This document shows positions 133 through 63,018 of a stretch of 64,000 bases of DNA, in pieces. The stretch covers positions 1,116,001 to 1,180,000 of the forward strand of contig OZ025802.1 of assembly GCA_964019425.1 (NCBI GenBank). Reading direction: 5' to 3'. Under the pieces are notes generated by a model, which made no database searches, was not told where the DNA came from, and was given only the letters and a program-made list of their open reading frames with translations. A program made the translations under genes and the position numbers. Numbering within the stretch: position 1 is the stretch's first letter; each line of letters begins with the position of its first letter. Source of the stretch: Flectonema sp. DT1601. Taxonomy: Eukaryota.

Positions 133-764
133 ATGGGTTTATTATCGATTTTGAAGAAAGTAAAATTGAAAGAAAAGGAAATGAGAATATTGATGCTTGG
201 ATTGGATAATGCAGGTATGCCATAATCTACTGTTGTTTATTTAGAACGAAAAAAAAAAACAAACAAAAAAAAAACAAAAAAAAAAAAACAGGGAAAACAA
301 CAATTGTTAAAAAGTTTAACAACGAAGACATAAACACAATAAGCCCTACTTTAGGATTCAACATTCAGAGCTTACAGTATAAGGAATACACTCTAAACAT
401 CTGGGACGTTGGTGGACAACAAACCCTCCGCTCATACTGGAGAAATTACTTCGAGCAAACAGATGCACTAATTTGGGTTGTAGACAGCCATGATGAAGCT
501 CGTCTGAGCGATTGCAAAAAAGAGCTTTATACATTACTTAGTGAAGAAAAACTTGCGGGAGCATCATTGTTGATATTTATGAATAAGCAAGACTTGCCTG
601 ATGCCCTTTCAAAGAATAAAATTATTGAACTTTTAGATCTTCATACCCTGAGCACTTCACGTCATATTAATATGGTTGCTTGCAGTGCTGTTACAGGAGA
701 TGGTCTTGAAGAAGGTATCTCATGGGTCGTTGATGACATAGCCTCAAGGATTTATATTGAGTAA
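133..764 (+). CDS. ARL2: ADP-ribosylation factor-like GTPase ARL2 (2 exons: 133-214, 292-764)
   Basis: Spliced protein reads [93 protein letters not shown]...NKQD...CSAVTG...DDIASRIY. It has the P-loop, WDVGGQ and NKQD motifs and the ARL2-type N- and C-termini. Intron 215-291 (GTATGC...ACAG) restores the frame. Confidence 0.95.
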
Positions 765-7332: not shown

Positions 7333-10300
7333 ATGGTATCTAAAGAGTGTAATGTTATCACGTTGTCAGATCAAAGTGATGACGTAAAGGAAGTTCTGTT
7401 GGAATTATTATGTGAAAATGGTACTGATGGTCATTGGGTAGATGGGATGGTGGAATGTGACCTGATTCTAGATACTCAAGAAGCTGTGTCGTTAAGAGGG
7501 CTAATTGATGGTCAGTTTGAAAGAGTCGTTCCTTCTGAGCAGCAACCACAACAACAGCCACAACAACAGCAGCAGCAGCAGCAGCAGGTTGTTGTTGATG
7601 ATTCACTCTCCTCGTGTAGACCTCTTTCATGGCTTCTACGAATGTTGGATGATTATCACGCTCATAGGACGACAATATATCAGCCAATGTTGGGTCTTGA
7701 TCCTCAAAAGAAATCTCGTCTTCCCGCAACAAGAAACCGTCCACTCACAGCATTCGATTTCATTGAGCGAATGCTCCACGTTGGAGCCGAACACAATCCA
7801 CATTTAGGTGACGCAACCAGCAATCAATTATTTCAATATTTGGGAAAGAAGTTTGGACTCGATTCACTCGTTAAAAAGGTCGGAGGTGAGCTGCTCTCTG
7901 CGTTAAAATGCTTTCGAAAGGACTTGGAAATACTTCTATTCTCAGCCTTACTTACAACAGGAGAGTATGATGCAGCAGACTCTTTCTTTTATATTGCGGC
8001 TAGATCGAGTGTGTTATCGCTCTCTCACAACGTTTCGGAACAGCAGGGGGGTGGGCTACCACCCATCACAAGGAGAACTCTTCCAAACACACAGGTTTAT
8101 AAAGCAGTTAAGAAGGTTTTTCGTGACTACCCACATAGTCTCGCTAAACAAGCAAAACTATCTTGTACAGAGTATTGGAACCTTGGTGGTCCTTCGACCT
8201 TTTCAAACATGTCACAAGAGATGGCTTCAGTTCGATTCCTGTGTCCACCGTTTTCCGGTCATCCGCTCCTCCCTGAAAATGAAGTGGGAGGTGAAATTAG
8301 GAAGGGGATGTTACTGTCTCATTTCTTAGTTATTTGTACACTTGTATTTAAGAAGTATCGATGTCGTGAGAAGACTACTCCAGCAAAGAGTCAGACTGTA
8401 AAGACTGAAGTACCTTCTTCATTAGATAGTAGTCGGAAGTTTGATAAGATGACTTTACAATTAAACGAATTATCTACTAAGAGTAATGGAAGAGATCTCC
8501 GCAGTGAATCACCAGAAGATCCTTGGAATATCCCTCACGGAAAGATGTTTCACAAGGCTGAAAACTCTCCTCAGGACCATAGTCATGAAGGACGGAGAAG
8601 TGCCTCTCCCAGACAAATAGACGTATCACCACCGAGAGAGCTTGAGACGTCTCCTAGTTCTGACCATCGTGACTTTGGATATCAACAATCTGGTCATTCA
8701 GGAAATCCAAAACCTCAAATGTACCCACAGAAACTATTTGATCACATGGCTAAGTATAGCGATGCGTACAGTCAGTCTCCTATTCCTGCAAGTGAGCACT
8801 GGCCAGAACAGTTTCCGCAACAGCAGCCAACACTAAATCAACAATTTGATCAGCATGAGAGAGAATACTCTTATCCTAATCAAAGAAATCAAGGATTAGT
8901 TGAACAAGAAAGGTTCCATCAACACCCAATAGACGACAACCCCACTCAAAGGGCTGTCTCTAATCAACGTGACTTTGACTACGAGAGACAGTCAGGGTAC
9001 CCACAACAACAATCACAGCAGCAACAGTACATTTCAGATGATCAAAACCTTGTTAGCAATTCTGGAATCCCTCCTACTGGTAGATCACAGAGTGTCTACT
9101 CTTCTCAGTTTGATTCGCAGAAAGATTTAAGTGAATCAAGATACGAACAAAACCAAAGAGGGAGAAGACAAAGTGTTTCACAACATCTGAACTTGTCTGG
9201 CGGTGCGCAGCAACAAATCCCGATAATCACACGTTCTCACAGTCAGCAAGGAAGTCGGAGTTGTTCTCCATCAGTTGGGAATCATCCACAGCAGTACCAG
9301 TCACTTGATTTTGATAAACAGTACTCTAGATCACCTTCTGCAGGGTCTAGACCTCAAGATGGGAGATCACCTTCAATAAATGTTCCCTACTCGAGTGAGT
9401 CATCACCACCAGTAGTAAGTAATCAGGAGAATAGATATTACAGCAGACAACCTGAACATCATTATTCACATGAGAGTAGTTCTAACAACTATCACAGTTC
9501 ACCTTCTAATCAATATCAACAATCTCAATCAAATGGAAATCATAATCAATATAATAATGTTAATCAACAATATGGTAATCGACATCAGACTCAGTTAGGT
9601 GGTGATAGAGGTGAGCAACGACCTCATAATTGTGATGGGCAACTAGAAATGAACCAACAGCACATCAATAACTATCATTCTTCTAATGATCAATGTGAAT
9701 ATAATCATCAAATAGAAAGTCAACAACAACAGCAGCTACACTACCGACAGCAGGTGCAGTCAGGCGGAAACTACAGCGACCATCAACCACAAAATGGTAG
9801 TCAGTTTCAAGTAAATCAGCATCGTAGTCATCCTTCTAATGACCAATTCGGTGATGGTGACCAGCAGTTAGAAGTTCAGCAGCAGCGGAAACAACTGCAA
9901 CAGCAACAGCAACAGCAGCAGCAGCAGCAGCAACAACAACAACAGCAACAACAGCAGCAACAACAGCAGCAGCAACAACAACAGCAACAGCAGCAACAAC
10001 AGCAACAGCAACAACAACAGCAACAACAACAGCAACAACAACAGCAACAACAACAGCAACAACAACAGCAACAACAACAGCAACAACAACAGCAACAACA
10101 ACAGCAACAGCAGCAGCAGCAACACTCGCAATACAATAATCAATTTGGTGATAAGTTTAACCATCACAGACAGCAACCAAATTATTTTCAAAACCAACTC
10201 AGTGATTGTAACAACCAACAGCAGACATCACTTCATCAATCTGATAATCAGTTCGACTGTTCACCTCCTCAGTTAGATGTTGGTGAGAGTACTCTATATC

Positions 10301-10932
10301 AACATGAGGAGGTAGTTCAACAACAGTATGAACTCACTGAGATGACTACCAATCAGTTATCTGAAGTAGGTCATCAATTAGATCAAACTAGTCTTAGTAA
10401 TAACACTCAAGGTGTTGTTGATCAGCAAAACAAAATAAGACAACGAAGTCTTCAAAGCAGTAAATCTGATTCAGGAAGAAAAGCACTAAAACAACACGTT
10501 CGATTTAATGATACTGAAGATGTTGAGATCAGCCCTAGTCAGAAATTTCACTCAGCTAGAAGAAGTCCTGCGAAGAAGTCTCCACAAGCAGTGCCACCAC
10601 CAGAGTTGGGAGCTGGAATGAAGTTTATGATCTCTGAAGACACAGAACATGATACTACTCCGTTTGTAATGAGAGAATCTGGTAGTAGTTTTAATTTCAA
10701 TACTCAATCTAAAACATCAAATATTAAAAGTCCATCAGTAGGTCGTGACGGAGGGGCATCAGCTCCACTTTTTAAATCATCTCGTGAACGTGATCAACGA
10801 GAAATTGAATCACAGCTTCAAACATTAGAAGCTCAGGTAGCCGAAGCATCTGAACGACTTCGACTATTCGCTGTCTCTAGAGAAACAGACAAAGAAACAA
10901 GAGATGCGCTGGCTCCTATCATAAACAACTGA
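7333..10932 (+). CDS. 1199-aa protein with an N-terminal helical domain (weakly TSNAXIP1-like), a Q/S/N-rich disordered region with a 75-Q tract, and a C-terminal coiled coil
   Basis: Long ORF. Segment FQYLGKKFGLDSLVKKVGGELLSALKCFRKDLEILLFSALL; polyQ at 9898-10122; C-terminal REIESQLQTLEAQVAEASERL. Confidence 0.75.
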   Translation: MVSKECNVITLSDQSDDVKEVLLELLCENGTDGHWVDGMVECDLILDTQEAVSLRGLIDGQFERVVPSEQQPQQQPQQQQQQQQQVVVDDSLSSCRPLSWLLRMLDDYHAHRTTIYQPMLGLDPQKKSRLPATRNRPLTAFDFIERMLHVGAEHNPHLGDATSNQLFQYLGKKFGLDSLVKKVGGELLSALKCFRKDLEILLFSALLTTGEYDAADSFFYIAARSSVLSLSHNVSEQQGGGLPPITRRTLPNTQVYKAVKKVFRDYPHSLAKQAKLSCTEYWNLGGPSTFSNMSQEMASVRFLCPPFSGHPLLPENEVGGEIRKGMLLSHFLVICTLVFKKYRCREKTTPAKSQTVKTEVPSSLDSSRKFDKMTLQLNELSTKSNGRDLRSESPEDPWNIPHGKMFHKAENSPQDHSHEGRRSASPRQIDVSPPRELETSPSSDHRDFGYQQSGHSGNPKPQMYPQKLFDHMAKYSDAYSQSPIPASEHWPEQFPQQQPTLNQQFDQHEREYSYPNQRNQGLVEQERFHQHPIDDNPTQRAVSNQRDFDYERQSGYPQQQSQQQQYISDDQNLVSNSGIPPTGRSQSVYSSQFDSQKDLSESRYEQNQRGRRQSVSQHLNLSGGAQQQIPIITRSHSQQGSRSCSPSVGNHPQQYQSLDFDKQYSRSPSAGSRPQDGRSPSINVPYSSESSPPVVSNQENRYYSRQPEHHYSHESSSNNYHSSPSNQYQQSQSNGNHNQYNNVNQQYGNRHQTQLGGDRGEQRPHNCDGQLEMNQQHINNYHSSNDQCEYNHQIESQQQQQLHYRQQVQSGGNYSDHQPQNGSQFQVNQHRSHPSNDQFGDGDQQLEVQQQRKQLQQQQQQQQQQQQQQQQQQQQQQQQQQQQQQQQQQQQQQQQQQQQQQQQQQQQQQQQQQQQQQQQQQQQQQQQQQQHSQYNNQFGDKFNHHRQQPNYFQNQLSDCNNQQQTSLHQSDNQFDCSPPQLDVGESTLYQHEEVVQQQYELTEMTTNQLSEVGHQLDQTSLSNNTQGVVDQQNKIRQRSLQSSKSDSGRKALKQHVRFNDTEDVEISPSQKFHSARRSPAKKSPQAVPPPELGAGMKFMISEDTEHDTTPFVMRESGSSFNFNTQSKTSNIKSPSVGRDGGASAPLFKSSRERDQREIESQLQTLEAQVAEASERLRLFAVSRETDKETRDALAPIINN
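9898..10122 (+). repeat. CAA/CAG microsatellite encoding 75 consecutive Gln
   Basis: 225 nt of CAA/CAG codons in the ORF frame, partly as higher-order (CAA)3CAG units. Confidence 0.95.
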
Positions 10933-11127
10933 AATTAGTTGAGATAGAAGAAAACAGAATAAATGACTTTTGTAAAATAATTAGTTAACTGTAGATTTTA
11001 AAAAAACACAAACCTATCCATTAGAAAACATGTTTAGATTATAGAGTAGAATAATTTAATTTGTTTTTTTTTTTTAGTAGTTTTATTTTGTTTATTTCTT
11101 TATTACCCAGTTGAGTTTAATGAAATA

Positions 11128-12604
11128 ATGAACTACCACATCCGAGTCTGCTGTGGTCTTGGAAGTCAAACTGAATATGTTAACATAGTTGTGCCGTACT
11201 GTGGTGAACCAACACAAGGTATGAATTGTTTTTGTCTTTTTCTTCTTGGGGGAAAAAAAAAAAACAGAGCTCTTCCTAGACACTGTCAGAGAACATCTAC
11301 AATCAGACGCTGTCACATTGTCGGGTCTAGACTTTGATGGGTTGTTAATATTTAATGAAGTAGATTACACTTGGATACCACTACGTCATCCATCACAGTT
11401 ATCTGAAGACTGTCAGGTATACGTTCCGCGAGATGGACAACAACTGCCTGCAGAGTTCCCTCCAGTTGAACGCAAGTCTAACGAAACTGACTGGTGGAAA
11501 GTTGCCATGGCTCAAGAACCGAGTAAACTCATAGCAACTATATTATCAATAGAGTACGCTGGTAGTTTTGTTTTATCGTTTATGTCCACTGCTAATATTG
11601 TTTACGAAAACAGTCCCACGGTGACATTCCAGTCAGCCGGTATTATAAATGCCATTGTCATCCTCGTCATTCTTCTTTCATTCGGAGAGAATCATACTCC
11701 TCAACTAAATCCGATAGCAACCTTGGCGTTGTTATTAAGGAGGAAGATACCTATATGGTTAGCTGTACTGAGCTTTATAATTCAGATACTAGGATGTGTT
11801 GCTGGTGTTGCTTTGGCATTTGCTGTGACTGAGGGTGGATCTCCAGATGCTGATATTAGTTTTAGAACAGCTGCGTCAGTGGTACAGCCGGGATGGGCAA
11901 AAGGTCAGGCTGCGATTGTTGAGATTACGGCGTCGTTTTTCATATCATTTATTGTTTTAAAACATACGAAAGATCACGAAGATCCATTCAGACATTCTCG
12001 ACCTCGTTCATGTACTCTTCAGGGAGCTATTGCAATAAGTGGAAGTTACTATGTCCCTACAGCTGTTTTTAGTAGAGTCCATCCAAACACAGCACATCCA
12101 GCACGTGCGTTCGCTATGGCTATTGTGTTGCAGGATAGAAGTGAAGTTTGGGAAAATCTTTGGATCTTTATCGTTTTTCCTATCTGTGGGTGTCTTATAT
12201 CAGCTGTTGCTCACCAGTCTATTCCTTCAACGAGAGGTGTTTATAAATCTGTTGCTGATACTGTACAGTCAAAGCGTCATCATGCCTCTTCAACAACAAA
12301 ACAATATCAAGTGATTCAACCTGCGAAAACTATTTTTATTAATGGTGGTATGGATCAGAGAATTGGTGTTAAACTGACTAGTGATTCCCGTCATTTTGAA
12401 ATTATATCGAGTCTCTCTGAGTGGTCAGATAATCCACAATGCTGGGTAACTGACACAGACGGTACATTAGTTACACTTACTTATGACACCGTCACTGATG
12501 GAAGTGAGTATTCTATTAAGAAGTCTACAGTTAAAAACACAGTTCAATCTCCTGTAGTAAACGTGTTCGGAAGTGCTCATAGTCTTGTACGAACTCGACA
12601 CTAA
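11128..12604 (+). CDS. Aquaporin/MIP channel with an N-terminal BILBO1-N-like domain and a C-terminal small beta-grasp/KHA-like domain (exons 11128-11218, 11268-12604)
   Basis: A 49-nt intron 11219-11267 (GTATGA...AAAACAG) joins ORF 11128 to ORF 11246 in frame. MIP features: IEYAGSFVL, LNPIATLA, IIQILGCVAG, VEITASF, HPARAFA, WIFIVFPICG. The N-terminus contains WIPLRHPSQLSEDCQVY. Confidence 0.85.
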
Positions 12605-12850: not shown

Positions 12851-15800
12851 ATGTCAGGTGGTCTCCAGAGAGCGATCCTAATCGACGGTACAACTGACGG
12901 GTATTTAGTGTCTTGGATAACACCCTATTGTAGTAAAGGGTTTATTGAATATAATAACAGTAGGGGTGTCAATAATATAAAATATCCTTCACAATCCACT
13001 CACGATGTTGGAGGATGGAGAGGTTGTGTAAACACCGCGAGATTAGATGAAATATTCCATCCATCAAACGCGAGTTATAAAATATTTGATGTTGGGGACA
13101 GCGGTAGTGATATTCAGCAGTTTAGTTCGATTCCGGCTGCAGGTGATTTTGATTTATTGAAATTTGCAGTCATATCGAGCACAGGTACATCTGAAGATGC
13201 GAATCTGTCAGTAAATCTACTCCTCACCGCTGACATCAATCTTCTTGTTGGTGTTGGAGATCTGAGTTATGCAGACGGCAATCCCGATGTGTGGAATGTG
13301 TTCGGTTCGTTGTTTGAACCAATTCTTAAGAAGATTCCTTTAATCGCAACACCAGGTGATCACGAAATAATGAATGACGGACGTGGGCATGCTATCCCAT
13401 TTAGGTATGCTAGACAGTAAATCATATTATCACAACCCGTAAACTAGAATGATTATATCATATAAACTACTAACAGATATCGATACACCCGAAGTAACAC
13501 AAAGTTCAGGTGGTATTCTGTCGACAAGGGACTGGTGCACTTTTGCCAACTGGACTCTGACTTATTGACTGAAAAAAACGAATCTGAATATCAAAAAAGA
13601 TCACGTTCCTGGAATCGAACTATCGACGATGTCCGAGAACAGTATCAACTTCTTGTTGTACAACAGCTGCGGTATGTGTCTGTGCGGCTTAATTTGACAC
13701 AACACGGGGAATTTTACTAGGTCAGGACAATGAAAGGATTGACAGATTGAGAGCTCTTTCTCGATCCATTGTGTGGTGGTGCATGGCCGCTCCTGGTTGG
13801 TGGAGTGATTTGTCTGGTTGATTCCGTTAACGAACGAGATCTCGACCCTTCAGTAGGGGCGCTCGTCGCTTAGGTCTTAGGCGTTCTACGTCCTTTTTCC
13901 AAGACAGTGCCGCCCTTCTCGGGAAAATAAAATAAAACTTCTCTCCCTCTATAGAGTCAGTTCCTGATCGCGAGCCCCTCTTTGCGCCTGACAGTGACAA
14001 GCACGTTTCTCCACCCTCTCTAACCCCTGTTGTATTAGATATGCCGTCTGTGTTCTGTGTTGTTGAGGTGGTAATGAAAATAGAACTCTTTATTACCAAT
14101 TAGCGACGCACATCCTGCTATTCCCTTTTACAATAGAACTCTCCGTTGTATATTTCCTACTCAAGTTTTTAGGATTCTCTTCCGTCCTGCAAGTATCACT
14201 AAAGATTGTCGATACCTAACCCCTTTCTGGGATGCGTTCTTAGGCCGTAGCATACTTGGGATTTTGTTTTTTTTTACAAAAAAAAAAAAAAAAAAAAAAA
14301 CAACACACACAGATGGTTGAATAACGACTTACAAAATGCAGTCAATAACCGCAACACCATTCCATGGATAGTTGTTAGTTGTCATTATCCTATTTATAGT
14401 AGTCTGAGTGACTCATATAACTTAGAGATCAGAACCGTATTGGAACCTTTGCTGCTCACTTATGCTGTAGACTTAGTGCTGTCAGGTCACAATATACACT
14501 ATGAGAGAACCTTTCCTGTTAGTCAAGGACTGGTGTTGCAACAACACTATAATTCACCGAAATTTCCGGTTTACGTAGTCGTTGGAAGTTCTGGAGGAGG
14601 AATCGCAATGCCCGTGGGAGATAAAAGTGATTTTACAGCTTTCATACGTTCAACTAAATCGGGATTCGTTCAGATTGCTGTGAACAAAACTGTGATGGAT
14701 GTCAGCAGGGTAGAGATGAAACAATCAACTATCATTGATCAATTTGTGATTATTCATAAAAACAGAACCAATGTACTACCAAGTACATCACCTATTCCAC
14801 CACGAACAAAGCTACCGATTTCACCTTTTAAATTTTATCAAATTTCAAGCAACTCTCTCAAACCATTTCAATGCACAACACCATTCTCAATAAGTAACAT
14901 CAGCATCCCTCACGAGCTAATTTTGATTGAACAAAATTCACTAAATAGCAAAATATTAACAACGTTAACCAGAATAATTTTAGAACAGAAACTAGGTGTT
15001 ACAGTAAAGGTCAAGTTCGAACCTGACCTGAATGACACTCTCCTGTCTGATTTACAAGAAGATACGGTATTTATACAGGCACAACCACTACCTAAATCCT
15101 TTAATAGTAAACCTGTAGGTAGGGAGTACGGTGCACGTGGATCTTGGACATGGCAGATACGAAACACTGGAAGTAATTCTGTCCAAGACTGGAAATATTT
15201 TCAAAGTGATTCTGGTGACTATAAACAGCTGTACTGTCCTTTGGAAAGTTGTGTGCAAGAAATGAAGAGTATTACATCGAAATATAGCCTGATGCTGCTC
15301 CCTGACTCAGCTGGTTCTGAAGAGGGTCTTATACTACGAGCTCTATCACAAAGTTCATCTGAAGACATGATGTTCCAATGGTGGACTCCGAACTTCATTG
15401 GTACCACTCTAGATAATTACACTGAAATATTAATACCAGAAATACGAATAGAGGAGTTCAAAGTATACTCAAAACTAGTTAGTGAACATCCTGCAACATA
15501 TTTTATTAATAATTTTCAACTCTCAACTGAAGACCTTAGTACTCTACTACACAACACGGAGGGTGATACTCGAAATGTTCAGTTAGTTGCTTGTAATTGG
15601 TTAATAAACAATCCGGTAAAGGTAAATAGATGGTTTCAAAAAGATAAATCATCGGACATACCAATGAACCTCTCTTTTGCGATATTCTCGTTTGTTACTC
15701 TTTTGTTAATTATTTTGTTAAGTTGCTATGTTAGAAATTTGTGGAGGCATTATAATCGTTTTCAGCTTGCTCCTCGTGAGCCTCCGTTTACTATTGGAAC

Positions 15801-16614
15801 GATTCAGATTTATGATGAGGAGATGATTAGTAGGGAATTTCCAAAAATATTTCCGAAAATTAAACAAACTTATGACAAAATAATCAAATCAAATGCCACT
15901 GTCTACAATGGATATATAGTCCCATCCACTACCGACGCTAACGACGTTGTCATCACTTGGATTGATGCTGATGATGCTGCAAAATGTTGCATCGAAATAA
16001 ACAAACAACTTTGCAAAGTAATTTGGCCAACAGAACTTACTAAAGAAAAATCAACGTCAATTCAGTTAAACTCTGATGGATCCGCCGCATTTGCTGGAAT
16101 AAGAGTTAAAATTGGTCTTGTTTTCGGTGATGCAACTGCTGTATGCAACAAAGACTTAGCTTTGCAATATAGCGGTTTGTCATTTGAGACTTCCGCGTAT
16201 TTATGTGAAGTTGCAAATGGTGGTCAAATATTGGTGTCGAGGAGTTTTTTTTCAGCCGTGACCCAGCCAGAGACTGGAGACCCGTTTGTGTTTCAGGAAC
16301 TTGCCTCAGTTGAGATTGACAATGTTGGTAAGTTAAATTTATATAATTTGGACGTGACGGGTCTTCAGCGTGTTTTTGGAGGAACTCAAACAGACTCGGA
16401 TTGCCCAAACAAAATTGCAACAGGAATATATCGATTTCTATCCAGTACCTCTGGTGGAAAAAATATTTCTGTCACCCGTTTGAGTGCCTGTTTGCAGAAC
16501 TCTTCTGCAATAGAAAAGGTAATTTCAACTCATCCGTCTCTGCCTTCGGAAGATTTCTTAACCAGGGAAGATATTTCCGCCCTTATGAGTAACACCATTC
16601 ATGTTAAAATATAA
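12851..16614 (+). CDS. Multidomain receptor: purple acid phosphatase-like + OpuAC/ProX-like periplasmic-binding domain + 1 TM + class III adenylate cyclase-like domain (exons 12851-13404, 13477-13671, 14313-16614; true start uncertain)
   Basis: Introns 13405-13476 and 13672-14312 (both GTATG...ACAG) give a continuous PAP sequence: GDLSYADG, PGDHE, WYSVDKGLVHFCQLDS, QLRWLNNDL, PWIVVSCHYPIY, DLVLSGHNIHYER. PBP-like motifs: IILEQKLG, FQWWTPN, FINNFQLS, ACNWL. TM at ~15670-15735. Cyclase-like GIRVKIGL...YSG...VANGGQILVS. Confidence 0.85.
13681..13850 (+). pseudogene. 18S (SSU) rRNA gene fragment inside intron 13672-14312; may extend to ~13923
   Basis: Conserved SSU blocks occur in order: TGCGGCTTAATTTGAC(A)CAACACGGGGAA, AGGATTGACAGATTGAGAGCTCTTTCT, GGTGGTGCATGGCCG, GGTGGAGTGATTTGTCTGGTTGATTCCGTTAACGAACGAGA. 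There is no flanking rDNA, and the normally invariant GACTCAAC reads GACACAAC. Confidence 0.92.
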
Positions 16615-42900: not shown

Positions 42901-43632
42901 GCATTCGCGGTAAGAAACATGGACAGCAACGACGAGTGTGGAATCAATGCGTTATTTATGGCGGGGATACTATTTTTTTATTGGGTTGCGATAACTTTTA
43001 CGTTTCCTTTTAGTACTCCTTTCGAAGCTATTTGTATGTCTTTGGAAGCGTTATTTCAAATGATCGCAATGATATTTTTAGCGATTGGATTCTTTTCGGG
43101 TGAAGACAGACATCCAGGGTTTACAATCGCAGGACAATTCCTCGAAGGAGCGATGTGGTTGATGATAATAAAGACTGTTTATGAAGTCATAAGAACAATT
43201 CATGATCTCTGTACTGGTCGTACAAAACGACTTAAAGATGCATATGAAGAAGACCATAAACAGCTAACTGAAACTACTGATACTTTATGCCAAGAAATAG
43301 AACTGGAACGTGTATCAAGTCAACCGACTGAGGAGTCACTAGCGATGGATGAAACACAAGAATTGGACGATTTATATTCGTTCCTTGATAGAGCTGATAA
43401 ACTTGGTGTGCTGACACCAACACAAAACCTAACAGTTGGAACAACCATCACCCTCGCTGGTATTAAAAACAGAAATGGTTTTAGAGCCGTTGTTACCAAG
43501 CAATTGGAAGACGGAAGAGTCAGAGTTCGTTTAACTGATGGAACGATGTTGAAGGTAAAACCTGTCAACTGTACTATTGACAGTAGTTATAACACGTCTT
43601 TTGCCAGATCAAAGACTGCTGGAGTATGTTGA
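39930..43632 (+). CDS. Large surface receptor: signal peptide + LamG/pentraxin-like domain + Thr/Ser-rich stalk + multi-pass TM domain + cytosolic KOW/SH3-like end (exons 39930-41513, 41753-41855, 41927-43632)
   Basis: LSMSAWFK, WTFLS and VYIGG...FNGVIDDVRIYRKVLT (LamG3-like). Introns 41514-41752 (GTTTGT...ACAG) and 41856-41926 (GTATGT...ACAG) join the ORFs in frame. The last exon has many hydrophobic helices. Confidence 0.85.
41545..41662. repeat. Family B copy joined to the short motif CCTTGATTTA(TTTA)TCCAAGTCCCCCC (family C; also at 18854-18878 and 63148-63180)
   Basis: Direct sequence identity among the listed sites. Confidence 0.8.
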
Positions 43633-44351
43633 TATCGTTTATTATTGTTTTTAATAAACCAACAAAAAAAAAAAAAAAAAAAACAGGACTGGAATCACAT
43701 TATAAAACAAGCACATCAACTACAACATTCTAGAAGTGCTAATTTAGCATTTCCAGGGTCTCGGGAAGACATGTCGTACAATAAATGTTAAGCCTTACTT
43801 GAAGCTGCTCATAGCTACTTCAATTTTTATTATTAAATTTTTTTTTTCTTTTTTCTTTCATTCATTTCCCTTAAGTGCTTCACGTTAAATCATGAATGCA
43901 GGTGTGTGAGTTTATAAATAACTATAAGTAAATAAAAAAGCCCTCCCAGAACGTATGCTGTATTTGCGATTGCACCCTACTCAGAGAAATTACGGCTATC
44001 TGTAATGAATCGGAAAAAAAAAATAAAGAAAAAAAAAAAGATTTCGTATGTTTTGATGAATACACCTGAAATAAAGTTTCTTCCGACTATATTCGAAAAT
44101 GTTTCCCAAAGTCGACACAAAAGTGATGCAATTTCACCGATTTATTTTAATTCTTTTTTGCACCGATGAAGATCGGAGAATTTTTTTTTTTGCATTTAAC
44201 AAGTATTGTAAGAACGAAAAAGAATGTTGGCCAGCACACGTACCTCCTTTAGCTTTATCAGTTTAAGTCGGTTCACGGTTTCGTGCACAAACAAAAAATC
44301 ACAGTTGATCATTATTTTCTGTATAGTTGAAGATAAAGCCAATTCTTTTTT

Positions 44352-49419: not shown

Positions 49420-49978
49420 TCATAACTATGCATCTCAAACTTTGAAATTATTATTTGTGTATTACTTATTCGAGATGCGCAACAATCTTTTTGAAAAAAA
49501 GAAAATAATAATAATAAATTCTGCCTAGTTTGCTACAGATATAAAAAAAAAAAAATAAAAAACCAATGCCGAAAAAGAAGGAGCAGTCGGCTGAGAAGGG
49601 ATTCTTCAGTAAGTCGGACTTGACATTGTTAGCGCTCCCTGAAGAAGATGAGGGTGAGATGGGAGACGGGAATATCATACCAGGACTCTCATGGAGGTTG
49701 CAGCATCCCTATGCCGGTGCACGTTCTCGTAGTGCATTTGAGAGCAGCACTAATTATAAACATCCTCATCCGTGAGTTGAGTTAAAACAAACTTCACAAC
49801 ACACGTCGATAGTTACACTTTTATAGATTACTACGTTATATTCTTATTAATTCAAGGCTTTCGGTTGTTGTTTTAATTATGTTTTTCCTTCTTATTCTCA
49901 TCAACTTAGTAGTCTTATTTATTACTTCCCTCCCTCCAGCCTAGTGCTCGAATAGCGATAAATAGTCGCTACTAAAAT

Positions 49979-52900
49979 ATGAAAGTAATGTTATTTTCTG
50001 TGGTGTTGGTCAGTTTATTATCAACGGCAGTTGGTCAGTCAGCGTGTGCTGCAGTATTATGTAAAGAGGGATACCTTTGTGAGGAGCTCGATATTAAATG
50101 CGAAAATGAATTGGATTGCGTGAACTTTATTTGTAAACCGATTTCCGAAATGAAATACTGCGGCGGAGCGGAGTGTCAAACTGGAGAGGTTTGTAAGTCA
50201 GTTGAAGTTCAATGTTTAACCACCCCATGCCATCCAGTTCCGGAATGTGTACCTGAGGAACAAGCACGATGCGCAAATGAAATATGTAAGTATCCAAGTT
50301 TCTGTTCTGAAAAAGCGGTACCTTGCTTTGCAGCTCCGTGTCCTGTTCAAAACGTCTGTGAAGAAGTGACCTATTCAGCTCCTCCAACCGCTGAAACTAA
50401 TAATTGTAACAACATGTGTACCTCTGATGAAGAATGTGTTGCTGTTCCGAATGCTTGTCCAGCTATGCCATGTCCTCCAGTACATGTTTGTCAACAGAAA
50501 GAAACCTGTGGAGGAAAGATCTGTGTTGATGGAACTGTTTGTACAAAGAATGATGATCATTGTACTAACCCTCTCCGTTGTGAACCAAAGCTTATTTGTG
50601 ATAGTAGAATTTGCTGTCTTGCTGTTGCAGTTTGTAAAGAAGGCTATGAATTAAGCTCTTCATGTTCTGAAGACGACTATGACTCAGGTGAGTGCCTCTG
50701 GGAACGCATGTGTTGCTCATCCATTAGCTGCAAGAAGTATGCGTTCCTTTTAATAAACTATTCCCTTGTCGTAGTGTTTGTAAAACTTTTAATTGACGTT
50801 GAGTACGATACATTACAAGGAAGCGATGGATTATCAGTAGTACCTCGTCTATCCTTATTACACTTTTAAAACAACAACAACAACAACAACAGGATTCCTG
50901 TGCAGTCTCCATCCAATCCACAAGATGCTTCTAAGATGTGCTCAATGAAAGAACAAGTTGACTACTGCGTGTCTAAGAATGTCGGTTGGAAGATACAAAA
51001 GGAGTGTAATAATAATTGTAAGCTTCCTGTTGGTATTTGTAGTATGAGTAACCCGCCATGTGGATCTCAAGAATGTATTGATAACGGACTACTTGGACAG
51101 TTCATGTGTGTCGCTGGATCAGTTGAAAAGATGGTATCAGATGACCCGTGTGCTGTCGGACCATGTTCAACAGATGAATTATGCAGAGTTACCGACGGTG
51201 AAGCCACTTGTACAAAAAGAAGTCAACTGGGCGCATGTTGTGAAGCTTTCGCAACCTGCGGTGCTGACGAAAGCATGCGAGAGAGTCCATGTACTCAGGC
51301 GGAACTGTTATCAAAAAGTTGTTATAGAAACTCCATCTGCTGTAATGAAGTATTCTGTATTACTGAGTCTGCTAAACCCGCAGTTTTTAACAATTGTGCT
51401 TCAAAGCCTTGTCCGGATGGTTTTGTTTGCAGCGGAGGACCTGAAAGCCTCACAAGTTCTTTTGTATGCACCAGTAAACCAACTAATTGTTGTGAAGCTT
51501 TGCCATCGTGTAAAGACTCTGACATTACTTCTAACACTCCTTGTCAACAAGGTGAGACTGGTTGCTACAGAGAACAGATGTGTTGTGAAGAAGTCTTTTG
51601 TAGAAAACCTAATAAAACTCATGAGATGAAACCGACTGCTGAAACTAATAATTGTAACAACATGTGTACCTCTGATGAAGAATGTGTTGCTGTTCCGAAT
51701 GCTTGTCCAGCTATGCCATGTCCTCCAGTACATGTTTGTCAACAGAAAGAAACCTGTGGAGGAAAGATCTGTGTTGATGGAACTGTTTGTACAAAGAATG
51801 ATGATCATTGTACTAACCCTCTCCGTTGTGAACCAAAGCTTATTTGTGATAGTAGAATTTGCTGTCTTGCTGTTGCAGTTTGTAAAGAAGGCTATGAATT
51901 AAGCTCTTCATGTTCTGAAGACGACTATGACTCAGGTGAGTGCCTCTGGGAACGCATGTGTTGCTCATCCATTAGCTGCAAGAAGTATGCGTTCCTTTTA
52001 ATAAACTATTCCCTTGTCGTAGTGTTTGTAAAACTTTTAATTGACGTTGAGTACGATACATTACAAGGAAGCGATGGATTATCAGTAGTACCTCGTCTAT
52101 CCTTATTACACTTTTAAAATAACAACAACAAACAACAACAACAACAACAACAGGATTCCTGTTCAGTCTCCATCCAATCCACAAGATGCTTCTAAGATGT
52201 GCTCAATGAAAGAACAAGTAGACTACTGCGTGTCTAAGAATGTCGGTTGGAAGATGCAAAAGGAGTGTAATAATAATTGTAAGCTTCCTGTTGGTATTTG
52301 TAGTATGAGTAACCCTCCATGTGGATCTCAAGAATGTATTGATAACGGACTACTTGGACAGTTCATGTGTGTCGCTGGATCAGTTGAAAAGATGGTATCA
52401 GATGACCCGTGTGCTGTCGGACCATGTTCAACAGATGAATTATGCAGAGTTACCGACGGTGAAGCCACTTGTACAAAAAGAAGTCAACTGGGCGCATGTT
52501 GTGAAGCTTTCGCAACCTGCGGTGCTGACGAAAGCATGCGAGAGAGTCCATGTACTCAGGCGGAACTGTTATCAAAAAGTTGTTACAGAAACTCCATCTG
52601 CTGTAATGAAGTATTCTGTATTACTGAGTCTGCTAAACCGGCAGTTTTTGACAATTGTGCTTCAAAGCCTTGTCCGGATGGTTTTGTTTGCAGCGGAGGA
52701 CCTGAAAGCCTCACAAGTTCTTTTGTATGCACCAGTAAACCAACTAATTGTTGTGAAGCTTTGCCATCGTGTAAAGACTCTGACATTACTTCTAACACTC
52801 CTTGTCAACAAGGTGAGACTGGTTGCTACAGAGAACAGATGTGTTGTGAAGAAGTCTTTTGTAGAGAACCTAAGAAGACTCGTTGGATGAAATCGACTGC

Positions 52901-53390
52901 TGGTTGTGCAACTCAGCCGTGTCGTTCTTCAGACTTCTGTGTTGAAGATGAGACGCAGTACAACTGTGTAGATGCTGTAGAGAGGTGTGGTGATGTACGT
53001 TGTTTAGCATTTAGTATTGACTGTCCTGTTGGAATGGAAGTATCAGAAAGACCCTGTGATGAAAATGATTATAATTTAGGAAACTGCATTAGACTTTCAA
53101 ACCCGTTGTGTTGTCAGGAAAGATTCTGTAAAGTAATTTGTAACAGTGAGAAGTCGTCATCTCTCGAATGGATTTGGATTGTGATTGGATCATCTATTGG
53201 AGTTATTGTTATTTCATTGATTGGGTTGTGTGTTTGGAAACTCTCTTCTGGTCATTCTGCATCATCTCCTTCAAAACAAACATCACTGTGTAGAGTATCT
53301 GTTGTGTCATCTCTTGGAAAAGGTGAATCTGGAGACTTTATGTATCCTTCTATCAAAGAAGTACCTATGCCTCCTCCTGTTGTAAGTTAA
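49979..53390 (+). CDS. Cys-rich type I membrane surface protein with an internal 1.25-kb tandem duplication (exons 49979-50736, 50893-51984, 52154-53390)
   Basis: Signal peptide; many CxxxC/CC modules; TM WIWIVIGSSIGVIVISLIGLCVW. Introns 50737-50892 and 51985-52153 (GTATGC...(CAA)nCAG, phase 2) join the three ORFs in frame. Confidence 0.88.
50390..52898 (+). repeat. Near-identical tandem duplication (50390-51637 and 51638-52898) including an intron
   Basis: Identical overlapping ORFs appear in the track at 50427/51675 and near-identical ones at 51060/52321. The offset is 1248 bp before the intron and 1261 bp after it. Confidence 0.95.
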
Positions 53391-62358: not shown

Positions 62359-63018
62359 ACATCTTTATTAATAATAATAAATAATTAAAAAAAAGAATGG
62401 GCTTTTATTCCTTAAGCTATACAGAAAATAAGTAATATGACGCTGTGATTTTTTTGTTTTGTTTTTGTGTCACGAAAACCGTGTAACCGACTTAAACTGA
62501 AAAACTAAAGGAGGTTTACAATACTTGTTAAATGCAAAAAAAAAAAAAAAAAAAAAAAAAACACCCAATCCGTACCATATACATGTTCGGAATATAATTT
62601 CTCTTATTTTGTTTTACTCTCTGACTTGTTAATAATGCCTCATCAATCTCTGAATGTTGAATCACTCAGATGGTGAATTTCACGATAAAAAATACATTTT
62701 TGATGAGATTTTTCTTAAGTAAAGACAGTAGTTTTTAGAGACTTTTTTTTGTGTTTTTTTTTTTCGTTTGTTTCTTACATACCTCTCCTACCTCTCCTAT
62801 TATATAACTGTTATTCTCAATTCTATTCTTGTAGAAAGGCAGTATTCTAAATATTAATTAATATTCACCCCACCCCTAGGTTTGGCCGAACCCTATTCTC
62901 GTTTTAGCCAGTTTCAAGTTGCTCTCCATTTAGTATAAATATCAAGTTACACCCCTTGATTTATAATACGAAATAACGGGTTCAACGACGTCTTTTCAGT
63001 AAAAACAAAAATATATTT

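What the first reader, a model, noticed from the sequence alone, without database searches (positions are those of the whole stretch)
11128..11465. BILBO1-N-like domain fused to an aquaporin, hidden by a 49-nt intron
Seen: splicing 11219-11267 joins two separate ORFs into MNYHIRVCCGLGSQTEYVNIVVPYCGEPTQELFLDTVREHLQSD...FDGLLIFNEVDYTWIPLRHPSQLSEDCQVYVPRDGQQLPAEFPP, directly followed by a MIP channel. Known: the ubiquitin-like N-terminal domain of trypanosome BILBO1, the flagellar pocket collar scaffold, has the signature hydrophobic-Y-D/E...W-x-x-L-x4-Q-L-x3-C-Q-L-Y followed by a ..IPP tail, and this sequence follows it closely. Inference: this is a water/solute channel with a built-in cytoskeletal targeting module for the flagellar pocket, feeding apparatus or contractile vacuole. 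I know of no described BILBO1_N-MIP architecture.
Basis: partly seen in the sequence, partly recalled or inferred. Interest (0 to 1): 0.85.

Follow-up and report, generated by a model that had tools for sequence, protein, structure and literature searches.

The report
Aquaporin carrying a BILBO1-like docking domain
A gene of a diplonemid-like protist joins an aquaporin-family membrane channel to a domain resembling the partner-binding end of the trypanosome scaffold protein BILBO1, a pairing also present in a transcript-derived protein of a related species, which likely lets the channel dock onto a partner protein of the cell's feeding or flagellar skeleton.

Summary
The fusion is real. The BILBO1-like core and the MIP channel lie in one open exon (11268-12604). 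A transcriptome protein of the diplonemid Flectonema neradi has the same order (64% identical; core 40 of 41 residues). The match to BILBO1_N is significant but below Pfam's cut-off (E 3e-5), and the best PDB hit is the BILBO2 N-terminal domain. The 49-nt intron is probable but not read-confirmed: its ends match three other inferred introns in the window, one of which restores an ARF-family P-loop, and exon 1 has coding-like codon use. The Flectonema protein lacks exon 1, probably because of intron retention. 'Targeting module' is overstated: in trypanosomes this domain docks a partner peptide and does not set location, and one pocket Phe is Pro here. The pore motifs are atypical (NPI/HPA), and a conserved, unidentified C-terminal domain follows. 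Diplonema is reported to have 76 BILBO1-like proteins, so this is one recombination of an expanded domain. I found no description of the pairing, and no earlier finding of this scan matched it. Verdict: new variant of a known kind, function inferred.

The parts
11062..11110 (+). Pyrimidine-rich tract ending in CAG: likely spliced-leader trans-splice acceptor of the gene
   Evidence: 80% pyrimidine in the 20 nt before the CAG, like the site upstream of the ARF-family gene (85%) and unlike the A-rich cis acceptors; inferred
11128..11218 (+). Exon 1 coding part (30 codons + 1 nt); likely supplies the first two beta-strands of the BILBO1-like domain
   Evidence: Codon log-odds +9.9 bits in frame against -12.2 and -22.2 in the other frames; coding median 10.6; 3.9% of 4228 stop-free non-coding windows score as high. 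No family hit alone
11219..11267 (+). 49-nt phase-1 GT-AG intron (G|GTATG ... A12-CAG), inferred
   Evidence: matches the Diplonemidae consensus in PMC12621601 section 5; no read evidence
11268..11465 (+). Exon-2 part of the BILBO1_N-like domain (helix, strands 3-5, proline tail). Spliced residues F59, W66, Y82 align with BILBO2 aromatic residues; P84 replaces BILBO2 F88
   Evidence: Pfam PF18281 E 3.1e-5; PDB 7a1i; 56 of 67 identical to the Flectonema protein, core 40 of 41
11522..12220 (+). Divergent MIP/aquaporin domain; loop motifs NPI (11708) and HPA (12095); filter approximately N/T/N/R
   Evidence: PF00230 E 1.8e-18; best PDB hits are plant PIP2 aquaporins, E 3.5e-15; motifs; 148 of 233 identical to Flectonema
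12320..12517 (+). Conserved ~66-aa beta-rich C-terminal domain of unidentified fold
   Evidence: 42 of 66 identical to Flectonema against 12 of 33 in the preceding linker; no Pfam, PDB, Atlas or fold match
12518..12604 (+). C-terminal tail with a conserved terminal 14-aa motif, and the stop codon
   Evidence: 11 of 14 identical to Flectonema

Best explanation
The gene encodes a divergent aquaporin-family channel whose N-terminus is a BILBO1-like domain, completed by a likely 49-nt intron splice, that likely works as a peptide-docking pocket tethering the channel to a cytoskeletal partner protein. Shown: the domain order BILBO1_N-like, MIP, conserved C-domain in one frame, in two species, with the pocket-forming core the most conserved part. 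From established knowledge of MIPs: both termini face the cytosol and the channel is a tetramer, so it would display four pockets. Inferred: the pocket binds a short linear motif of an adaptor, as BILBO1 and BILBO2 bind FPC4, but a different ligand because the central Phe is Pro. Binding would hold or cluster the channel on membrane lining the cytopharynx or flagellar pocket rather than deliver it there. The non-aromatic filter suggests small polar solutes rather than strict water selectivity.
For: Single exon-2 frame with both domains. Transcript-derived orthologue with both domains, 64% identical. Core 40 of 41 identical against 148 of 233 for the MIP, as expected of a constrained binding surface. 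Three of four pocket aromatics and the proline tail are kept (pocket residues from PMC8360560). The two D. papillatum BILBO-like proteins that were tagged show signal around the feeding apparatus (PMC13615690). Intron signals match three other inferred introns in the window and published diplonemid consensus.
Against: No localisation, partner or transport data. The Pfam score is below the gathering cut-off. F88/F89, whose mutation abolishes FPC4 binding in BILBO2, is Pro. NTDs do not determine localisation in T. brucei. One of the two tagged Diplonema proteins gives mainly cytoplasmic circles. Only one orthologue was found in three word-based searches. The orthologue's first 22 aa do not contain a clear exon-1 equivalent.
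Confidence: 0.45

Rival explanations
1. The BILBO-like domain is a regulatory or trafficking input. It binds a soluble regulator, or the protein's own conserved C-terminal tail, to gate or sort the channel, with no cytoskeletal anchoring.
For: NTDs are not localisation signals in T. brucei. The domain is reported in 76 D. papillatum proteins, so it may be a generic interaction module. The pocket has changed. A conserved C-terminal domain and tail are available as a partner.
Against: The characterised ligand of this domain family (FPC4) is a microtubule-binding protein. The tagged diplonemid members show signal at the feeding apparatus.
Confidence: 0.25
2. The MIP part is a pseudo-channel used as a tetrameric membrane anchor that presents BILBO domains, linking a BILBO-type scaffold to the membrane.
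For: Second NPA is HPA in this gene (NPS in Flectonema), the first is NPI/NPT, the loop-B His is Gln, and the filter lacks an aromatic residue. The docking core is better conserved than the channel.
Against: The filter Arg and the helix 1 and helix 4 Glu residues are kept in both species. Functional MIPs with altered NPA motifs exist (TbAQP2 NSA/NPS). The His codon differs from an Asn codon by one base, and an assembly error cannot be excluded without reads.
Confidence: 0.15
3. Exon 1 is not joined. The AG at 11267 is used in trans-splicing or with another upstream exon, so the protein has a truncated or different N-terminus.
For: No reads. No database protein contains exon 1 joined to exon 2. 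The Flectonema protein has a different first 22 aa, with weak similarity to exon 1 (16 of 2000 shuffles score as high), so it could be a real diverged N-terminus. Many other GT-AG pairs also keep the frame open.
Against: The first in-frame ATG of exon 2 is at 11507, after the domain, yet the domain is 84% conserved, so an upstream coding exon is needed. The acceptor is A-rich like cis acceptors, whereas the likely trans acceptor lies at 11110. Exon 1 is coding-like, and its length puts the aromatic residues within 4-5 positions of BILBO1/2 numbering. Flectonema homology starts exactly at the acceptor, and its preceding residues (Lys-Thr) are what an AAAACAG acceptor gives when read in frame.
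Confidence: 0.1
4. The resemblance to BILBO1_N is chance, and the N-terminal region is some other small domain.
For: Below Pfam gathering cut-off; PDB E-values only 0.009-0.11; no confident structure model.
Against: E 3.1e-5 against 24736 families; the same family is top in Pfam and PDB searches; the shared residues are the family's pocket residues; the family is reported as expanded in this lineage.
Confidence: 0.05

Closest known systems
T. brucei BILBO2 / BILBO1 N-terminal domain (PF18281; PDB 7a1i)
   Same: 15 of 42 aligned residues identical to BILBO2-NTD (counted). Equivalents of F63, W70 and the strand-5 Tyr are kept, as is the proline-ended tail; similar spacing from the start Met once spliced.
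   Different: F88/F89 is Pro. The domain is attached to an integral membrane channel instead of EF-hands, coiled coil and leucine zipper (BILBO1) or a BILBO1-binding domain (BILBO2). FPC4 binding is untested.
Diplonema papillatum BILBOD family (76 proteins with a BILBO1-like NTD; PMC13615690)
   Same: Same domain, same lineage; this protein probably belongs to that expansion.
   Different: The paper's main text and two held supplements do not mention an aquaporin or MIP. Its File S1 list on figshare could not be seen and may include an orthologue.
MIP/aquaporin superfamily (PF00230); nearest solved structure spinach PIP2;1
   Same: Full MIP domain with hydrophobic helices, conserved Glu residues, filter Arg and two NPA-type loops.
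   Different: NPI/HPA (NPT/NPS in Flectonema), non-aromatic filter, and folded-looking extra domains at both ends.
T. brucei AQP2
   Same: Euglenozoan MIP with non-canonical NPA motifs, located at the flagellar pocket.
   Different: It is an aquaglyceroporin with an IVLL filter; no BILBO domain is mentioned in the passages read. Relationship not tested by a tree.

Membership tests
BILBO1_N (PF18281) | Profile score at or above the gathering cut-off (28.3 bits) | tested here: inconclusive
   24.6 bits, E 3.1e-5, from the exon-2 piece only, profile positions 47-88 of 92; the spliced domain was not scored
BILBO1_N (PF18281) | Ubiquitin-like fold with wrapped C-terminal tail | tested here: inconclusive
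   Only a pLDDT-35 model lacking exon 1; its Foldseek list has 7a1i at E 0.76, probability 0.84
BILBO1_N (PF18281) | Aromatic pocket residues Y64/F63, W71/W70 and Y87 | tested here: met
   F59, W66, Y82 in both species
BILBO1_N (PF18281) | Central pocket Phe (F89/F88) needed for FPC4 binding | tested here: not met
   Aligned residue is Pro in both species
BILBO1 orthologue | EF-hands, coiled coil and leucine zipper after the NTD | tested here: not met
   The domain is followed by a MIP
BILBO-family collar / feeding-apparatus protein | Localisation and partner binding | not testable with these tools
   Needs tagging and pull-down
MIP / aquaporin (PF00230) | Profile score above cut-off over the whole domain | tested here: met
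   67.6 bits against 25, profile 14-222 of 222; Flectonema 80.3 bits
Orthodox water-selective aquaporin | Two NPA motifs and an aromatic/Arg filter | tested here: not met
   NPI and HPA; filter about N/T/N/R, assigned by spacing from the NPA Asn using recalled offsets and the PIP2 alignment
MIP / aquaporin (PF00230) | Measured water or solute permeation | not testable with these tools
   Needs a swelling or stopped-flow assay
Canonical Diplonemidae cis-intron | G/GTATG donor, CAG acceptor, A- or CA-rich 3' tract, short length | tested here: met
Canonical Diplonemidae cis-intron | Split reads across the junction | not tested
Beta-grasp (PB1 / DCX / KHA-like) for the C-terminal domain | Profile or fold match | tested here: inconclusive
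   Resemblance recalled from memory only; no Pfam hit; model pLDDT 53 with best Z 4.2 to unrelated folds

The most novel reading that the evidence does not exclude
This is an integral-membrane member of the BILBO family: a tetrameric aquaporin-fold protein, perhaps with little or no channel activity, that presents four BILBO pockets and so rivets the BILBO/microtubule skeleton of the diplonemid feeding or flagellar apparatus to the membrane, with its C-terminal domain as a second cytoskeleton-binding module. It would supply a candidate for how such scaffolds attach to membrane, which as I recall is unresolved for the trypanosome collar.
Probability: 0.2. Interest if true: 0.75.

Novelty: new variant of a known kind. 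Interest (0 to 1): 0.52.

Why it matters
The BILBO proteins described in the papers I read are soluble or polymer-forming scaffold proteins, and aquaporins rarely carry folded extra domains (recalled). A channel with its own BILBO pocket links membrane transport to the euglenozoan feeding and flagellar cytoskeleton. It is directly testable, because D. papillatum can be tagged and depleted. It also shows that the 76-member diplonemid BILBO family has been recombined onto membrane proteins. The limits are a distribution of two species so far and no functional data.

Tried and rejected
No whole genome is held, so paralogues could not be searched; no second BILBO-like core lies in the window. Read evidence was unavailable. 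The full HMMER search of cluster representatives never ran, so distant orthologues are untested. Three word-based homologue searches gave only the window's own gene call and the Flectonema protein: 2 of 7097, 2 of 31 and 2 of 8000 candidates; they missed even known aquaporins, so they do not show absence. Two metagenome scans found no relative (0 of 138 and 0 of 358 pattern matches). ESM Atlas gave no usable hit for the N-domain and one 0.75 'hypothetical protein' for the C-domain. The AlphaFold model of the exon-1-less protein was unusable (pLDDT 35). The C-domain model (pLDDT 53) matched nothing: Foldseek no E<=0.001, VIA best Z 4.2 among 48161 chains. The C-domain is not a second BILBO copy by phmmer. 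Exon 1 alone had no PDB hit and only a weak unrelated Pfam hit. The scan's earlier findings held nothing relevant. PMC7008359 was not held. Rejected: that the fusion is an artefact of the splice call, since the core and MIP share one exon and an independent transcript has both; and that the domain is a targeting signal in the strict sense, given.

Full report
Setting. The window is eukaryotic. The long ORFs with Pfam matches all lie on the + strand, as in the co-transcribed gene clusters of diplonemids (PMC10161547, passages). The only relative found of the gene studied is a Flectonema neradi transcriptome protein, P0002. I therefore treat the organism as a diplonemid, by inference. No whole genome and no reads were available.

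The observation. Bases 11219-11267 are 49 nt, GTATG at the 5' end and twelve A plus CAG at the 3' end. Removing them joins 91 nt of exon 1 to exon 2 and gives a 475-aa frame ending at 12604; keeping them stops translation after 69 aa. An open frame alone proves little, since 69 GT-AG pairs in the tested range keep it open (counted). The case rests on four other points. (i) Signal: three other inferred introns in the window have a GTATG donor and an A-rich CAG acceptor (215-291, 13405-14312, 43624-43686). The first restores the P-loop of an ARF-family GTPase and the second joins a 951-aa phosphatase frame. A systematic scan for A-rich acceptors with open flanks gave 8 candidate pairs, of which 215-291 and 11219-11267 are the two short GTATG introns. 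Published Diplonemidae introns have G/GTATG donors, CAG acceptors, A- or CA-rich 3' tracts and medians of 41-107 nt (PMC12621601 section 5). (ii) Exon 1 is coding-like: +9.9 bits in frame, -12.2 and -22.2 in the other frames; 3.9% of 4228 overlapping stop-free non-coding windows score as high. (iii) Exon 2 has no in-frame ATG until 11507, after the domain, yet the domain is 84% conserved, so an upstream coding exon is required; a pyrimidine-rich CAG at 11110 is the better trans-splice site. (iv) With exon 1 the key residues fall at F59, W66 and Y82, against Y64, W71 and Y87 in BILBO1.

Evidence against, told fully. No database protein shows exon 1 joined to exon 2. The Flectonema protein aligns from exactly the exon-2 start, but its first 22 residues differ. 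I read these as a retained intron: they end in Lys-Thr, which is what 3 of the 4 window acceptors give when read in that frame, and begin with a Met that could be the ATG of a GTATG donor. This is inference without the nucleotide sequence. The 22 residues also show weak similarity to exon 1 (score 23; 16 of 2000 shuffles as high), which leaves a diverged real N-terminus open. Exon 1 alone matches nothing relevant. I put the intron as called at about 0.85-0.9.

Domain identity. The exon-2 piece hits Pfam BILBO1_N at E 3.1e-5, 24.6 bits, under the 28.3 cut-off, on profile positions 47-88 of 92; the Flectonema protein hits at E 2e-4. Among 177,635 PDB sequences the single hit at E<=10 is 7a1i, the BILBO2 N-terminal domain; a two-sequence profile puts it first of 5 at E 0.0091. 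Three pocket aromatics and the proline tail are kept, but the central Phe (BILBO2 F88, BILBO1 F89), required for FPC4 binding (PMC8360560 section 16), is Pro in both species. The BILBO2 numbering assumes a one-residue offset between chain and paper. A structural test failed for lack of alignment depth. The domain is thus BILBO1_N-like, and formal membership is not closed.

The fusion does not depend on the intron. The core and the MIP are in one exon, and the Flectonema transcript encodes both in one frame, 64% identical overall. Identity by region is: core 40 of 41, whole exon-2 part of the domain 56 of 67, MIP 148 of 233, linker 12 of 33, C-terminal domain 42 of 66, terminal motif 11 of 14. 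The pocket region is under the strongest constraint.

The channel. PF00230 scores 67.6 bits and the best of 42 PDB hits are plant PIP2 aquaporins. The loop motifs are NPI and HPA (NPT and NPS in Flectonema), and the filter is about N/T/N/R by recalled spacing rules. That is not an orthodox water pore. Altered motifs do not exclude function, as TbAQP2 shows (PMC8355241 and PMC6071061 passages). The His is one base from Asn and is unverified by reads. The C-terminal domain looked beta-grasp-like to me (PB1/DCX/KHA, from memory), but no search supported that.

Mechanism. In T. brucei the NTD is a pocket for a short FPC4 peptide and is not what localises BILBO1 or BILBO2 (PMC8360560 and PMC4810094 passages). 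The best reading is therefore docking rather than targeting: a MIP tetramer presenting four cytosolic pockets that bind an unknown adaptor and tether or cluster the channel, plausibly at the feeding or flagellar apparatus, where both tagged Diplonema BILBO-like proteins gave signal. Architecture and conservation are shown; partner, place and permeant are inferred (0.45). Rivals are regulation or gating (0.25), a pseudo-channel membrane anchor (0.15), exon 1 not joined (0.1) and chance resemblance (0.05).

What is known. D. papillatum has 76 proteins with a BILBO1-like NTD (PMC13615690; parts 1-2 of 6 read, whole text and two held supplements searched), so the domain in a diplonemid is expected. 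That text does not mention aquaporin, MIP, channel or transmembrane; its figshare File S1 was not visible and may list an orthologue. Literature searches: BILBO1 + aquaporin gave 3 papers, seen as listings only, none on such a fusion by title; diplonemid + aquaporin gave 2; BILBO1 + diplonemid gave 5, 4 listed; aquaporin + fused + ubiquitin-like domain + protist gave 0; one search gave 18, 12 listed, none on this by title. The Discoba MIP survey has no 'fusion' in its text and no 'BILBO' or 'Flectonema' in 12 of 15 supplements searched. PMC7008359 was not held. The library lacks most subscription papers.

Verdict. This is a real, conserved and apparently undescribed domain architecture built from two known families, with a probable but unconfirmed intron, an altered pocket, an atypical pore and an extra unidentified domain. 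It is a new variant of a known kind; interest 0.52.

Noticed in passing
window 12851-13404 + 14313-16614: A 908-nt GTATG...ACAG intron joins a 951-aa frame: purple-acid-phosphatase domains (Pfam), a weakly periplasmic-binding-like region (OpuAC E 0.12), a hydrophobic helix, then a region that resembles a degenerate nucleotide cyclase (recalled; no Pfam hit). An unusual receptor-like architecture.
   Followed up: partly
window 133-764: ARF-family GTPase (ARL2-like by recall) with a 77-nt intron inside the P-loop; used as positive control for intron signals.
   Followed up: yes
window 11120-11128: A two-codon upstream ORF (Met-Lys-stop) whose stop codon overlaps the A of the gene's start ATG.
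   Followed up: no
window 7333-10932: 1199-aa ORF without Pfam match, containing a poly-Gln run of several dozen CAG/CAA codons around 9890-10120.
   Followed up: no
window ~44180-44304 (+) and 62443-62575 (-): Two similar ~120-nt non-coding stretches in opposite orientation (seen output), probably a dispersed repeat.
   Followed up: no
window 49976-53390: ORFs of 297 and 415 aa in the same frame separated by a single stop codon, followed by an overlapping 433-aa ORF; none has a Pfam match. Possible broken gene, read-through or hidden introns.
   Followed up: no
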